64,000 nt of DNA from an uncultured Candidatus Saccharibacteria bacterium (GTDB lineage Bacteria; Patescibacteriota; Minisyncoccia; Phycocordibacterales; PALSA-1337). The notes below the pieces were generated by a model. The model did no database searches, had not been told where the DNA came from, and saw only the letters and a list, made by a program, of their open reading frames with translations. How positions within the stretch are numbered: the first letter of the stretch is position 1; each line of letters starts with the position of its first letter. The position numbers and the translations under genes were made by a program. The DNA lies in the NCBI GenBank assembly GCA_964467225.1, contig CAYXPQ010000001.1, positions 75,803-139,802 on the forward strand, read 5' to 3'. Positions 28,422 through 29,307 of the stretch are shown piece after piece.

Positions 28422-28827
28422 TGGAGATGGGCGGAATCGAACCGCCGTGCAGATGAAATCTTATACCACTTCTACATTGTATAGCTAACTTTAGCGAGGT
28501 CTGATCCTCTTTTAACTTACATACTATAAAGTAAACAAAATATATGTAAGCGATTCCCAAGGTTTCAAACTATAAGCAGGGAAGAGAATATAGTTCTAGT
28601 TCATGTATATATCACCTCATCACTACTCTGAACGCGTAGTGAGAAATGTCGCTTAAGCCGTAGCTAGAGCGAAAGTAAAATCACGTGATCCAAAATATGG
28701 AGACACAATTGACTTTACCTTTGCAACTGTTGAATTAGCAGTTAACATTTTCCATTAGTTTAAAGAGATAATGGAACTCTACAATGCGTAATATGAAGTA
28801 CCTCAACTGTCGAGGCCTTTCATCCCC
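28422..28827 (-). ncRNA. ssrA: tmRNA (transfer-messenger RNA)
   Basis: Minus-strand 5' end GGGGATGAAAGGCCTCGACAG. The 3' end GGCGGTTCGATTCCGCC-CATCTCC-A forms a 7-bp acceptor with the 5' end, including the G3·U70 wobble, plus a T-arm. An internal tag frame ends ...GCT CTA GCT ACG GCT TAA. The gene lies immediately downstream of smpB. Confidence 0.8.
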
Positions 28828-28839
28828 ATGTATTAATTG

Positions 28840-29307
28840 TTAACGATCTGTGAATTCTCTTCGAATTTCTCGGTCTATATCGCGTTTCTTTATATCTTCT
28901 CTTTTGTCATGTTTCTTCTTTCCTTTAACTACTGCGATTTCAACCTTGATTTTCTTGCCTTTACTATACATTGAAATAGGTACTATTGTCAAACCCTTCT
29001 TAGTCTCAATAGATGCAAGCTTTTGAATTTCTGCTTTTGTAATTAAAATTTTACGATTCCTCTTGGGATCATAATCTTTCGGTGTATTATTTATTTGATA
29101 TGCAGGAATATTGGAAGCAATAATGAAAGCTTCGCCACCTCTTACTGTGATATGAGATCCTAATAGGGAACCTTGATTATTTCTAATACTTTTGACTTCT
29201 AATCCCAGAAGTTCAATACCACATTCGAATGTTTCAAGAATTTCATAATCAAGATTTACTTTTTTATTGTATATAAGTGAATTGCTCATACATATTGATT
29301 CTAGCAT
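28840..29307 (-). CDS. smpB: SsrA-binding protein SmpB
   Basis: 155 aa with SmpB core LGLEVKSIRNNQGSLLGSHITVRGGEAFI. It is adjacent to ssrA. Confidence 0.9.
   Translation of the reverse strand: MLESICMSNSLIYNKKVNLDYEILETFECGIELLGLEVKSIRNNQGSLLGSHITVRGGEAFIIASNIPAYQINNTPKDYDPKRNRKILITKAEIQKLASIETKKGLTIVPISMYSKGKKIKVEIAVVKGKKKHDKREDIKKRDIDREIRREFTDR

What the first reader, a model, noticed from the sequence alone, without database searches (positions are those of the whole stretch)
28422..29307. tmRNA gene found by hand immediately downstream of smpB, with an ...ALATA-type tag frame
The minus strand from 28827 to 28422 begins GGGGAUG and ends GGCGGUUCGAUUCCGCC-CAUCUCC-A. The termini pair into a 7-bp acceptor stem that carries the alanine-identity G3·U70 wobble and is followed by a T-arm, which is the hallmark of a one-piece tmRNA. 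SmpB is encoded 12 nt upstream on the same strand. A GCU codon at tmRNA position 89 opens a frame that reads ...F T F A L A T A and ends with UAA at 28653..28655. This resembles the E. coli ...YALAA-UAA tag. Spurious ORFs at 28228..28560 and 28302..28484 overlap the RNA and should not be annotated as CDS.
Basis: partly seen in the sequence, partly recalled or inferred. Interest (0 to 1): 0.55.

Follow-up and report, generated by a model that had tools for sequence, protein, structure and literature searches.

The report
Ordinary tmRNA; unexpected structured flank element

Summary
ARAGORN and Rfam RF00023 (109.5 bits, cut-off 47) call a full-length one-piece tmRNA at 28422..28827 (-), 12 nt after a bona fide smpB. 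An alignment of 18 relatives supports the acceptor stem (G3.U70 invariant), T-arm, helix 2, helix 5 and both stems of all four pseudoknots (85% of cells paired against 40-46% in slid controls). The tag is therefore the 28-residue ANSTVAKVKSIVSPYFGSRDFTFALATA. CCA is not encoded. The host is a Patescibacteria (CPR) chromosome. This is a new member of a well-known kind, so the finding itself is of low interest.

Something unexpected lies just 3' of the terminator. A GC-rich block belongs to a roughly 100-nt element with strong strand-specific covariation (helices P1, P2 and P3, with an invariant G.U). It has no Rfam match, at least 120 exact-core copies in metagenomes and three copies in this window, after the tmRNA and after both tRNA-Ser genes. 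The tRNA-associated copies carry an inverted copy and a second direct copy of the host gene's T-loop-to-3' end. At the tmRNA the direct copy lies 1.4 kb away, at 27012..27035. Its function is unknown. I think it is most likely a small single-stranded mobile or integrative element.

The parts
28840..29307 (-). smpB coding sequence (155 aa from ATG 29307; an in-frame ATG at 29289 is an alternative start). It has a basic C-terminal tail, ...KGKKKHDKREDIKKRDIDREIRREFTDR.
   Evidence: Pfam SmpB 162.1 bits (cut-off 27). NCBIfam equivalogs NF003843 at 166 bits (cut-off 130) and TIGR00086 at 160.6 bits (cut-off 119.1). Sequence.
28422..28827 (-). One-piece tmRNA (ssrA) gene, 406 nt from G1 to the discriminator A. 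CCA is not encoded; the next bases are CAG.
   Evidence: ARAGORN. Rfam RF00023 109.5 bits, model positions 1-374 of 374. Sequence.
28821..28827 (-). Acceptor stem, 5' strand GGGGAUG. G3 forms the alanine-identity G.U pair.
   Evidence: G3.U70 is invariant in 18 of 18 relatives.
28423..28446 (-). T-arm (GGCGG-UUCGAUU-CCGCC, 28446..28430) followed by the acceptor 3' strand CAUCUCC (28429..28423).
   Evidence: The T-stem is 100% paired, with compensatory changes in all 5 pairs.
28750..28780 (-). Pseudoknot 1: AGAG/CUCU and UUCCAUUA/UAAUGGAA.
   Evidence: helices 4-6, 78-87% paired, with compensatory changes.
28653..28739 (-). Tag reading frame. The resume codon is GCU (28739..28737). It encodes 28 residues, ANSTVAKVKSIVSPYFGSRDFTFALATA, with stop UAA at 28655..28653 inside helix 5 (28672..28649).
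   Evidence: The Rfam alignment places the consensus resume GCA on this GCU. ARAGORN calls the equivalent position in L004 and L005.
28488..28648 (-). Pseudoknots 2 (28648..28599), 3 (28595..28554) and 4 (28550..28488). PK4 carries a clade-specific extra hairpin at 28509..28496.
   Evidence: Both stems of each pseudoknot are paired in the window and mostly covary across the 18 sequences.
28388..28413 (-). Intrinsic terminator (GAAAAGCCGAC-UUUU-GUCGGUUUUUU).
   Evidence: The hairpin sequence differs but stays paired in L002, L004 and L008.
28963..28992 (-). Candidate internal promoter for ssrA inside smpB (TTGACA-N18-TATAGT), 165 nt upstream of the tmRNA 5' end. This is an inference only.
   Evidence: 11 of 12 matches. 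The same site is found in six relatives, but it lies in conserved coding sequence.
28276..28374 (-). Partial or expanded copy of the structured flank element (model R1). It has a decayed inverted T-arm copy (GGAAUAG), then AAAG, the P2 core CGGAACGAGCGUAGGCGAGCGAG and a GGGUGAG-hairpin-CGUAA module. P3 is missing here.
   Evidence: R1 35.4 bits, E 3e-9. The exact 23-mer is unique in the window. Homologous blocks occur in L002, L004 and L008.
27012..27035 (-). Displaced second copy of the tmRNA T-loop-to-3' end (CGATTCCGCCCATCTCCACAG, 21 of 21 nt; 23 of 24 overall), preceded by TGAC as in compact copies of the element.
   Evidence: 0 matches expected by chance.
27234..28097 (+). ORF of 287 aa (N-terminal transmembrane segment plus a Kre9_KNH Ig-like domain) lying between the two halves of the element. 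No integrase is present.
   Evidence: 36.8 bits, cut-off 24.6. No PADLOC or PHROG hit. No homologue in the element-bearing metagenome contigs.
35040..35143 (+). Full-length copy of the flank element, 34 nt 3' of tRNA-Ser(GCU) (34917..35006). It ends with a near-copy of that tRNA's 3' end.
   Evidence: R1 59.6 bits, E 3e-17. Sequence.
36625..36726 (+). Full-length copy of the flank element, 49 nt 3' of tRNA-Ser(ACU) (36489..36576). It ends with a 20 of 20 copy of that tRNA's T-loop-to-3' end.
   Evidence: R1 63.4 bits, E 1.6e-18. Sequence.

Best explanation
Window 28422..28827 (-) is the canonical one-piece tmRNA (ssrA) of a Patescibacteria/CPR bacterium, encoded 12 nt after its obligate partner smpB. 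Shown: it has a tRNA-Ala-like domain (7-bp acceptor stem with G3.U70, T-arm, discriminator A), pseudoknot 1, a tag reading frame, helix 5 containing the stop codon, pseudoknots 2-4 and an intrinsic terminator. Inferred from the established trans-translation pathway: the RNA is made as a precursor, either read through from smpB or started at a promoter inside smpB. It is then trimmed at the 5' end by RNase P and given CCA by the CCA-adding enzyme, because the gene reads A-CAG. It is charged with alanine and delivered with SmpB to stalled ribosomes, where translation resumes on GCU-89. This appends ANSTVAKVKSIVSPYFGSRDFTFALATA (the first Ala comes from the charged tmRNA, so 28 residues are added). 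The tag is long, has a clade-conserved internal (V/P)SP(Y/F)F motif and ends A-x-A rather than LAA. By analogy with Mycoplasma, this suggests recognition by Lon or FtsH rather than a ClpX-type reader of LAA; ftsH is the divergent neighbour. Just 3' of the terminator lies a degenerate or expanded copy of a separate, widespread structured element, with a displaced copy of the tmRNA 3' end 1.4 kb away. That element is not part of the tmRNA.
For: Detection: ARAGORN and Rfam RF00023 at 109.5 bits against a cut-off of 47, full length. SmpB passes the equivalog cut-offs. Sixteen relatives have a full-length tmRNA just downstream of smpB on the same strand. Structure: on 18 sequences, the 99-pair structure with both stems of PK1-PK4 has 85.1% of cells paired against 40-46% in slid controls, 78 pairs with compensatory changes, and 0 of 500 shuffles reaching the observed values. 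RNAalifold independently finds 54 of 65 pairs with compensatory changes. Resume codon: UAA-N-U-GCN-AAN is conserved, the Rfam alignment puts the consensus resume codon on GCU-89, ARAGORN picks position 88 or 89 in L004 and L005, and L004 has ACA where the window has GCA-104. The terminator hairpin covaries. The context is housekeeping chromosome: FtsH, RecG, EF-G, EF-Tu, LigA, SecA. Background on long tags and Lon in organisms lacking ClpXP: PMC8403727.
Against: There are no expression, aminoacylation or tagging data. CCA is not encoded, so function depends on a CCA-adding enzyme that I did not look for. ARAGORN's own call for this window starts the tag at GCA-104. Support for helix 5 and for the second stems of PK2 and PK3 is weaker (67-78% paired), partly because MAFFT aligns those regions poorly. 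The protease assignment is pure analogy, since only 64 kb of the genome is visible and clpXP or lon could lie elsewhere. The promoter inside smpB may be conserved only because it is coding sequence.
Confidence: 0.95

Rival explanations
1. The gene is the tmRNA, but translation resumes at GCA-104 as ARAGORN reports, giving the 23-residue tag AKVKSIVSPYFGSRDFTFALATA.
For: This is ARAGORN's call for the window, L002 and L003. GCA is the commonest resume codon in other bacteria (my own knowledge), and the two codons are in the same frame.
Against: In L004 the equivalent codon is ACA (Thr), and ARAGORN there picks position 88. L005 lacks it too. The conserved UAA-N-U context precedes GCU-89, not GCA-104. 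The Rfam alignment places the consensus resume codon on GCU-89.
Confidence: 0.12
2. The locus is a decaying or duplicated ssrA, for example one regenerated by an integrated element. The functional tmRNA lies elsewhere, or the 3' end supplied by the element is defective.
For: A displaced copy of the 3' end lies 1.4 kb downstream. CCA is not encoded, whereas L003, which has no insert, encodes CCA.
Against: Every helix is intact in the window. The acceptor stem pairs perfectly with the present 3' end. The same CAG-ending 3' end occurs in L002 and L004. Synteny with smpB is conserved. The tRNA-Ser genes in the window also lack encoded CCA, so this organism must add CCA anyway.
Confidence: 0.03
3. 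For the flank element and duplicated 3' end: it is simply the scar of a conventional integrase-borne genomic island or prophage that inserted into the tmRNA T-loop and has since been deleted down to its att-proximal ends.
For: A regenerated target plus a displaced 3' fragment is the signature of islands at tRNA-like genes (PMC4383910). The repeat starts in the T-loop and ends 3 nt past the discriminator. The DNA between tmRNA and cls differs among the window, L002, L003 and L004. Tandem units occur next to a tRNA in L188.
Against: There is no integrase in the window's insert, nor in L002 or L004. Compact units are only about 100-135 nt, yet they are conserved in sequence and by strand-specific covariation across at least 120 contigs and 14 tRNA types. 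Copies with unrelated P1 helices exist away from tRNAs, for example 3' of a 5S rRNA gene. No copy was found in 612 kb of viral contigs carrying the same tmRNA 3' 18-mer, and there was no blastn match to a representative copy in the phage and plasmid collections.
Confidence: 0.2
4. For the flank element: it is a small non-coding RNA gene, not mobile DNA. It would be transcribed with or after stable-RNA genes, with a P1 helix that imitates the acceptor/T minihelix so that the RNA is processed by tRNA-maturation enzymes or binds them.
For: The G.U pair is invariant and other G.U pairs occur only in the tRNA-sense orientation. There are compensatory changes in P1, P2 and P3, a conserved bulged A and a conserved AGCA loop, and the P2 interior is a variable hairpin. 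The element is always co-oriented with the upstream tRNA or tmRNA. In the two tRNA-Ser copies the intervening hairpin has no U-tract.
Against: Many copies, including the tmRNA one, sit behind a strong terminator with no room for a promoter. Occurrence is patchy among close relatives (absent in L003, present in L004). Tandem arrays exist. The 3' strand of P1 copies the neighbouring gene exactly, which looks historical rather than functional.
Confidence: 0.3

Closest known systems
Standard one-piece tmRNA with SmpB (E. coli SsrA, tag ANDENYALAA; Rfam RF00023)
   Same: It has a tRNA-Ala-like domain with G3.U70, PK1, a resume codon GCN, a tag ORF ending in a stop inside helix 5, PK2-PK4, and an adjacent smpB. 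It matches the full length of the covariance model.
   Different: The tag is 28 residues rather than 10 and ends ALATA rather than ALAA. CCA is not encoded. PK4 has an extra hairpin. The tmRNA begins only 12 nt after the smpB stop codon.
Mycoplasma tmRNA with its unusually long tag, degraded mainly by Lon in an organism lacking ClpXP (PMC8403727)
   Same: Both have a long tag with a hydrophobic or aromatic C-terminal part (relatives here end ...FAPAFA...FAFARA...FAYATA), in a reduced-genome bacterium.
   Different: There is no sequence relationship between the tags. Whether this organism lacks ClpXP or uses Lon or FtsH is unknown, since only FtsH is seen, next door.
Genomic islands integrated in tRNA/tmRNA genes (Islander definition, PMC4383910)
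   Same: An intact target gene is followed by a displaced copy of its 3' part, starting in the T-loop and ending just past the gene end. The content differs among relatives and tandem units occur.
   Different: There is no integrase. Units are as small as about 100-135 nt. An inverted copy of the target 3' part is also present. The conserved interior is a covarying, strand-specific fold.
Folded single-stranded recombination sites (integron attC; CTX-phage attP hairpin) and IS200/IS605-type subterminal hairpins. This comparison comes from my own knowledge and is a lead only.
   Same: The hairpin is strand-specific, tolerates G.T wobble pairs and has conserved extrahelical bases. Two inverted copies of the target can fold into a duplex that imitates the target. 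The small size fits a single-stranded intermediate.
   Different: No R'/R'' boxes, dif-like sites or HUH/Y1 transposase were found. The interior sequence is highly conserved, unlike attC. Nothing here shows which enzyme acts on it, if any.

Membership tests
tmRNA, standard one-piece (Rfam RF00023) | Covariance-model score at or above the curated gathering score, over the full model | tested here: met
   109.5 bits against 47, model positions 1-374 of 374, E 6.8e-42. ARAGORN also calls a tmRNA.
tmRNA, standard one-piece (Rfam RF00023) | tRNA-like domain: the 5' and 3' ends pair into a 7-bp acceptor stem with G3.U70, plus a T-arm and discriminator A | tested here: met
   GGGGAUG pairs with CAUCUCC, G3.U70 is present, the T-arm is GGCGG-UUCGAUU-CCGCC and the discriminator is A at 28422. 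G.U is invariant in 18 of 18 sequences and the T-stem is 100% paired with covariation.
tmRNA, standard one-piece (Rfam RF00023) | mRNA-like domain: a resume codon in a conserved context, a short ORF ending Ala-rich and hydrophobic, and a stop codon in helix 5 | tested here: met
   GCU-89 follows UAACU. The 28-codon ORF ends ...FALATA-UAA within helix 5. Homologous tags occur in 15 relatives.
tmRNA, standard one-piece (Rfam RF00023) | Pseudoknot PK1 between helix 2 and the resume codon, and PK2-PK4 after helix 5 | tested here: met
   All eight stems pair in the window. Across 18 sequences 85.1% of cells are paired against 40-46% in slid controls, and 78 of 99 pairs have compensatory changes.
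tmRNA, standard one-piece (Rfam RF00023) | A mature 3'-terminal CCA, alanylation, and tagging activity on stalled ribosomes | not testable with these tools
   The gene reads A-CAG, so CCA must be added after transcription. L003 and L019 encode CCA. No expression or biochemical data are available.
tmRNA, standard one-piece (Rfam RF00023) | The partner protein SmpB is present | tested here: met
   It lies 12 nt upstream. Pfam gives 162 bits, and the NCBIfam equivalogs give 166 bits (cut-off 130) and 160.6 bits (cut-off 119.1).
Group I intron-interrupted tmRNA gene (T-loop insertion) | The gene is split at the T-loop by a group I intron | tested here: not met
   The tmRNA is continuous and full length. 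No intron family matches in 25900..28440 at E up to 1.
Integrase-borne genomic island at a tRNA-like gene (Islander definition) | A regenerated target gene plus a displaced 3' fragment marking the far end | tested here: met
   There is a 21 of 21 nt (23 of 24) direct repeat at 28416..28439 and 27012..27035, with 0 matches expected by chance.
Integrase-borne genomic island at a tRNA-like gene (Islander definition) | A tyrosine (or serine) integrase gene inside the element | tested here: not met
   The only substantial ORF between the repeats has an Ig-like Kre9_KNH domain. There are no PADLOC or PHROG hits. The 19 larger window ORFs scanned against Pfam also showed no recombinase.
Any described RNA family (Rfam 15), for the flank element | A match to a curated covariance model | tested here: not met
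   No family matches the element in the window (E up to 1), or in six loci with well-formed copies, where only the neighbouring tRNA, tmRNA and RNase P genes match. Text searches found no paper describing it.
Folded single-strand recombination or transposition sites (attC, CTX attP, IS200/IS605 ends), for the flank element | A strand-specific hairpin with extrahelical bases, plus a cognate recombinase or transposase | tested here: inconclusive
   The strand-specific fold, the invariant G.U and the bulged A are shown. No cognate enzyme was identified. This is a functional analogy only.

The most novel reading that the evidence does not exclude
The GC-rich block just 3' of the tmRNA terminator, together with two intact copies after the window's tRNA-Ser genes, belongs to an undescribed family of roughly 100-135-nt structured elements in Patescibacteria-like genomes. 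The conserved unit is a three-helix fold. P1 is formed by the flanks. P2 is a variable hairpin clamped by CGGAG/CGAG, which probably form tandem G.A pairs. P3 is 15 bp, with an invariant G.U, a bulged A and a C-AGCA-G loop. In about half of the copies the element sits a median of 68 nt after a tRNA or tmRNA gene, and P1 is built from an inverted copy plus a second direct copy of that gene's T-loop-to-3' end, so that it imitates the acceptor/T minihelix. The most novel reading is a new kind of very small element that moves as a folded single strand and targets the 3' ends of tRNA-like genes while regenerating them. A milder alternative is a new tRNA-mimicking small RNA.
Probability: 0.5. Interest if true: 0.7.

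Novelty: new member of a known kind. Interest (0 to 1): 0.25.

Why it matters
The tmRNA itself matters only for annotation. It fixes the gene's ends and removes two false ORFs. It also gives the correct 28-residue tag, which any search for tagged peptides would need. The clade-wide tag alignment (conserved SP(Y/F)F, ending A-x-A) offers a testable hint that these reduced-genome bacteria read the tag with a protease other than ClpXP, as Mycoplasma does. The flank element could matter more. It is abundant, strongly structured, missing from Rfam, and tied to tRNA, tmRNA and 5S genes in a lineage whose RNA biology is poorly known. If it is mobile, it would be an unusually small element that regenerates its target. 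If it is an RNA, it would be a new tRNA mimic.

Tried and rejected
1. Phage or plasmid origin of the window: rejected. The neighbours are housekeeping genes.

2. ARAGORN's resume codon at position 104: rejected in favour of position 89.

3. Group I intron in the T-loop, prompted by PMC13011429: rejected. The gene is intact and no intron model matches.

4. Conventional prophage or island at ssrA: no integrase, phage or defence hits in the variable DNA of the window or L002 (one Pfam call failed on wrong L004 coordinates). The exact att 20-mer is absent from viral contigs. The shorter 18-mer occurs in 76 viral contigs, but they share nothing else with the window and hold no copy of the element.

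5. The conserved 23-mer as a short coding sequence: the frames and lengths of candidate ORFs differ among the window, L002, L004 and L008 (read), so this was rejected.

6. A tRNA-like fold for the L004 flank: the T-stem is missing, so this was rejected.

7. Retrocopy of a mature tRNA: rejected. The duplicated block copies the genomic CAG, CAA or CA at the CCA positions, not CCA.

8. Cargo homology: the 287-aa ORF has no homologue in the other element-bearing contigs.

9. Known RNA family or annotated record for the element: no Rfam match, no phage or plasmid match, and no paper.

10. I did not settle whether the element acts as RNA or as single-stranded DNA.
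Full report
**1. Observation**

The sequence is as described. On the minus strand, 28827 begins GGGGATG and the RNA-like stretch ends GGCGGTTCGATTCCGCCCATCTCCA at 28422. ARAGORN reports one tmRNA in the window, at 28421..28827 (-). Rfam's tmRNA model RF00023 matches 28419..28827 (-) over all 374 model positions at 109.5 bits, against a gathering score of 47 (E 6.8e-42). The ORF at 28840..29307 (-) is SmpB. Pfam gives 162 bits, and both NCBIfam equivalog models score above their cut-offs. 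Its TAA stop is at 28842..28840, so exactly 12 nt separate it from G1 of the tmRNA. GCU at position 89 is 28739..28737. The frame it opens ends ...FTFALATA, with UAA at 28655..28653.

**2. Context**

The neighbours are ordinary chromosomal genes:
- ftsH, divergent from smpB, and recG
- a cardiolipin synthase, a beta-CASP RNase, ndk and map
- further out: EF-G, EF-Tu, type IV pilus genes, ligA, gatA and secA

The closest SmpB relatives in the genome collection are metagenome-assembled Patescibacteria/CPR genomes, labelled Saccharibacteria, Taylorbacteria, Nomurabacteria and similar. The window has 35% G+C. It is a cellular chromosome, not a phage.

**3. Anatomy of the tmRNA**

The structure was written out by hand and checked:

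| Feature | tmRNA positions | Window coordinates |
|---|---|---|
| Acceptor stem, with G3.U70 | 1-7 with 399-405 | 28827..28821 with 28429..28423 |
| T-arm | 382-398 | 28446..28430 |
| PK1 (AGAG/CUCU and UUCCAUUA/UAAUGGAA) | 48-78 | 28780..28750 |
| Tag frame | 89-172 | 28739..28656 |
| Stop codon | 173-175 | 28655..28653 |
| Helix 5 | 156-179 | 28672..28649 |
| PK2 | 180-229 | 28648..28599 |
| PK3 | 233-274 | 28595..28554 |
| PK4, with an extra hairpin at 319-332 | 278-340 | 28550..28488 |

A long helix 2 joins the tRNA-like domain to the rest of the RNA. An intrinsic terminator follows at 28413..28388. The gene does not encode CCA, because the discriminator A is followed by CAG. CCA must therefore be added after transcription. 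The two tRNA-Ser genes in the window also lack CCA, so the organism needs a CCA-adding enzyme in any case (inference).

Twelve nucleotides leave no room for a promoter. The RNA must be processed from a longer transcript that either reads through from smpB or starts at a TTGACA-N18-TATAGT site inside smpB, 165 nt upstream. That site recurs in six relatives. It lies in conserved coding sequence, however, so its conservation is not independent evidence.

**4. Comparative test**

Sixteen relatives have a full-length tmRNA just downstream of smpB on the same strand. I aligned 18 of these tmRNAs.
- RNAalifold recovers the acceptor stem, T-arm, helix 2 and one stem of each pseudoknot. Compensatory changes occur in 54 of its 65 pairs.
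- The full 99-pair structure, with both stems of all four pseudoknots, has 85.1% of cells paired, against 40-46% when partners are slid by 1-3 columns. 78 pairs show changes on both sides, and 0 of 500 shuffles reach the observed values.
- G3.U70 is invariant.
- Helix 5 and the second stems of PK2 and PK3 are the weakest parts (67-78% paired), partly because of the alignment.

**5. Resume codon and tag**

ARAGORN starts the window's tag at GCA-104, giving 23 residues. Three lines of evidence favour GCU-89, which is in the same frame:
- The Rfam alignment places the consensus resume codon on it.
- The context UAA-N-U-GCN-AAN is conserved across the clade at that position.
- In L004 the codon equivalent to 104 is ACA, and ARAGORN then chooses position 88. 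In L005 it chooses position 89.

The tag is therefore most likely ANSTVAKVKSIVSPYFGSRDFTFALATA. Relatives share ...(V/P)SP(Y/F)F...F-x-F-A-x-A-x-A, with a variable penultimate residue (T, R, F, Y, V, K or I). In E. coli, ClpXP with SspB is the main route for degrading tagged proteins. In M. pneumoniae, which lacks ClpXP, an unusually long tag is read mainly by Lon (PMC8403727). By analogy, this long tag without an LAA ending may be read by Lon or FtsH. That is inference only, because most of the genome is not visible.

**6. The overlapping ORFs**

ORFs 28228..28560 (-) and 28302..28484 (+) have no Pfam hits. They lie on the tmRNA, its terminator and the conserved element described below. The ORF in L002 that corresponds to the first of these matches it only while it overlaps the RNA, then diverges and ends early. 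Neither should be annotated as a coding sequence.

**7. What lies downstream**

A search for the tmRNA 3' end found a second copy on the same strand at 27018..27039. The repeat is 21 of 21 nt (CGATTCCGCCCATCTCCACAG), or 23 of 24 nt over 27012..27035 and 28416..28439, with none expected by chance.

In L003 the tmRNA is followed within 150 bp by a small membrane ORF and then cls. The window has about 2.5 kb of extra DNA at that point, L002 has 2.3 kb of different DNA, and L004 has 1.2 kb. L004 has two 32-nt copies of its tmRNA 3' end only 155 nt apart, and L014 has a similar arrangement. No integrase, phage or defence gene was found in these inserts.

**8. A conserved block and its family**

The roughly 100 nt after the tmRNA are a terminator followed by a GC-rich stretch. 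This block is conserved in the window, L002, L004 and even L008, whose SmpB is only 57% identical. Reading these copies shows a common layout:
1. an intact tRNA or tmRNA 3' end
2. a hairpin, often terminator-like
3. an inverted copy of that gene's T-arm and acceptor 3' part
4. AAAG
5. the core
6. GGGUCGCG, a variable hairpin with the loop C-AGCA-G, then CGUGAC
7. a second direct copy of the gene from the T-loop (CGAWUCC...) to its 3' end

Of 114 copies that could be judged, 56 lie a median of 68 nt after a same-strand tRNA or tmRNA gene, covering 13 tRNA amino-acid types plus tmRNA. Of those 56, 43 have the direct copy and 45 have the inverted copy.

**9. Structure of the element**

On 40 compact copies, the three-helix structure has 84.8% of cells paired, against 32-46% in slid controls. 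26 of 31 pairs show compensatory changes, and 0 of 500 shuffles reach the observed values.
- P3 is 93% paired. It has an invariant G.U (40 of 40) and further G.U pairs. These would be C.A mismatches on the other strand, so the fold is specific to the strand that has the same sense as the tRNA.
- The pair closing P2 covaries (C-G, A-U, U-A).
- Diverged copies show that the 23-mer is itself a hairpin of variable sequence and length, held between CGGAG and CGAG. There are 72 terminal pairs in 24 distinct interiors, against 18.9 +/- 5.0 in shuffles.

Rfam 15 has no matching family. Text searches found no description. A representative compact copy (L234) has no blastn match in the phage or plasmid collections. 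The model finds no copy in 612 kb of viral contigs that carry the same tmRNA 3' 18-mer.

**10. The element in this window**

A covariance model built from the 40 copies (R1) finds three copies in the window:
- 36625..36726 (+), 63.4 bits, just after tRNA-Ser(ACU). It ends with a 20 of 20 copy of that tRNA's 3' part.
- 35040..35143 (+), 59.6 bits, just after tRNA-Ser(GCU).
- 28276..28374 (-), 35.4 bits, after the tmRNA.

The tmRNA copy keeps the decayed inverted flank (GGAAUAG), AAAG, P2 and an extra GGGUGAG-hairpin-CGUAA module that is also seen in L210, L197 and L241. It lacks P3. The expected right end, TGAC followed by the direct copy, is 1.3 kb away at 27039..27015, and a 287-aa Ig-like-domain ORF lies in between on the other strand. 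This copy is either an expanded form or one disrupted by a later insertion.

The duplicated blocks end 2-3 nt past the discriminator and copy the genomic CAG, CAA or CA rather than CCA. The duplication was therefore templated by the gene, not by mature tRNA.

**11. What the element might be**

Several observations fit a mobile element that regenerates its target, in the manner of tRNA-gene islands (PMC4383910):
- a regenerated target plus a displaced fragment
- patchy presence among close relatives (absent in L003, present in L004)
- many copies per contig
- tandem units after one tRNA (L188)

Other observations do not fit a conventional integrase island. There is no integrase, the unit is about 100-135 nt, an inverted target copy is present, and the fold is strand-specific. 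Copies with an unrelated P1 also exist, for example after a 5S rRNA gene in L010.

My best guess, with roughly even odds, is a very small element that moves or recombines as a folded single strand. The main alternative is a small RNA whose P1 imitates the acceptor/T minihelix. Neither is shown.

**12. Verdict**

The tmRNA is a new member of a thoroughly known family, so the finding itself is of low interest. The refinements are the 28-residue tag, the missing CCA, the clade-wide tag motif and the removal of two false ORFs. The flank element is the part worth pursuing.

Noticed in passing
window 35040..35143 (+), 36625..36726 (+), 28276..28374 (-); also L004 4025..4132, L008 3926..4051, L010 (3 copies), and more than 120 metagenome contigs: A structured element of about 100 nt (helices P1/P2/P3, invariant G.U, bulged A, AGCA loop) follows tRNA, tmRNA and 5S genes. 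It is not in Rfam. Copies next to tRNA-like genes carry an inverted copy and a direct copy of the host gene's 3' end.
   Followed up: yes
window 27012..27035 (-) and 28416..28439 (-): A direct repeat of the tmRNA T-loop-to-3' end, 23 of 24 nt (21 exact), brackets 1.4 kb that contains no integrase. L004 and L014 show the same feature over 155 and 207 nt.
   Followed up: yes
window 36489..36576 (+): A tRNA-Ser with anticodon ACU (anticodon loop UUACUAA) lies beside a normal tRNA-Ser(GCU) at 34917..35006. A at position 34 is unusual outside tRNA-Arg(ACG).
   Followed up: no
window 31877..31951 (+); the same gene in L002, L003, L005, L007, L016, L017 and L020: A tRNA-Ile with anticodon UAU lies just 3' of ftsH and is conserved in relatives. 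This hints that the clade decodes AUA without a lysidine-modified CAU tRNA.
   Followed up: no
window 28963..28992 (-), inside smpB: A near-consensus promoter-like site (TTGACA-N18-TATAGT) lies 165 nt upstream of the tmRNA 5' end. It recurs in six relatives, but it sits in conserved coding sequence.
   Followed up: partly
window 25914..28420 compared with L002, L003 and L004: The interval between ssrA and the cardiolipin synthase gene is a variable region. It spans about 150 bp in L003, 1.2 kb in L004, 2.3 kb in L002 and 2.5 kb in the window, holding unrelated hypothetical ORFs. The window's include a 66-aa CxxC-type ORF at 26739..26939 and a 95-aa Cys-rich ORF at 25972..26259.
   Followed up: partly
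window 2135..5218 (+) and 27234..28097 (+): Two predicted secreted or surface proteins share a Kre9_KNH Ig-like domain. One of them lies inside the tmRNA-flanking insert.
   Followed up: no
L010 4240..4360 (-): An internal 5S rRNA fragment (CGATGGTACTTGC) is repeated about 70 nt downstream of the 5S gene, just before a copy of the flank element.
   Followed up: no
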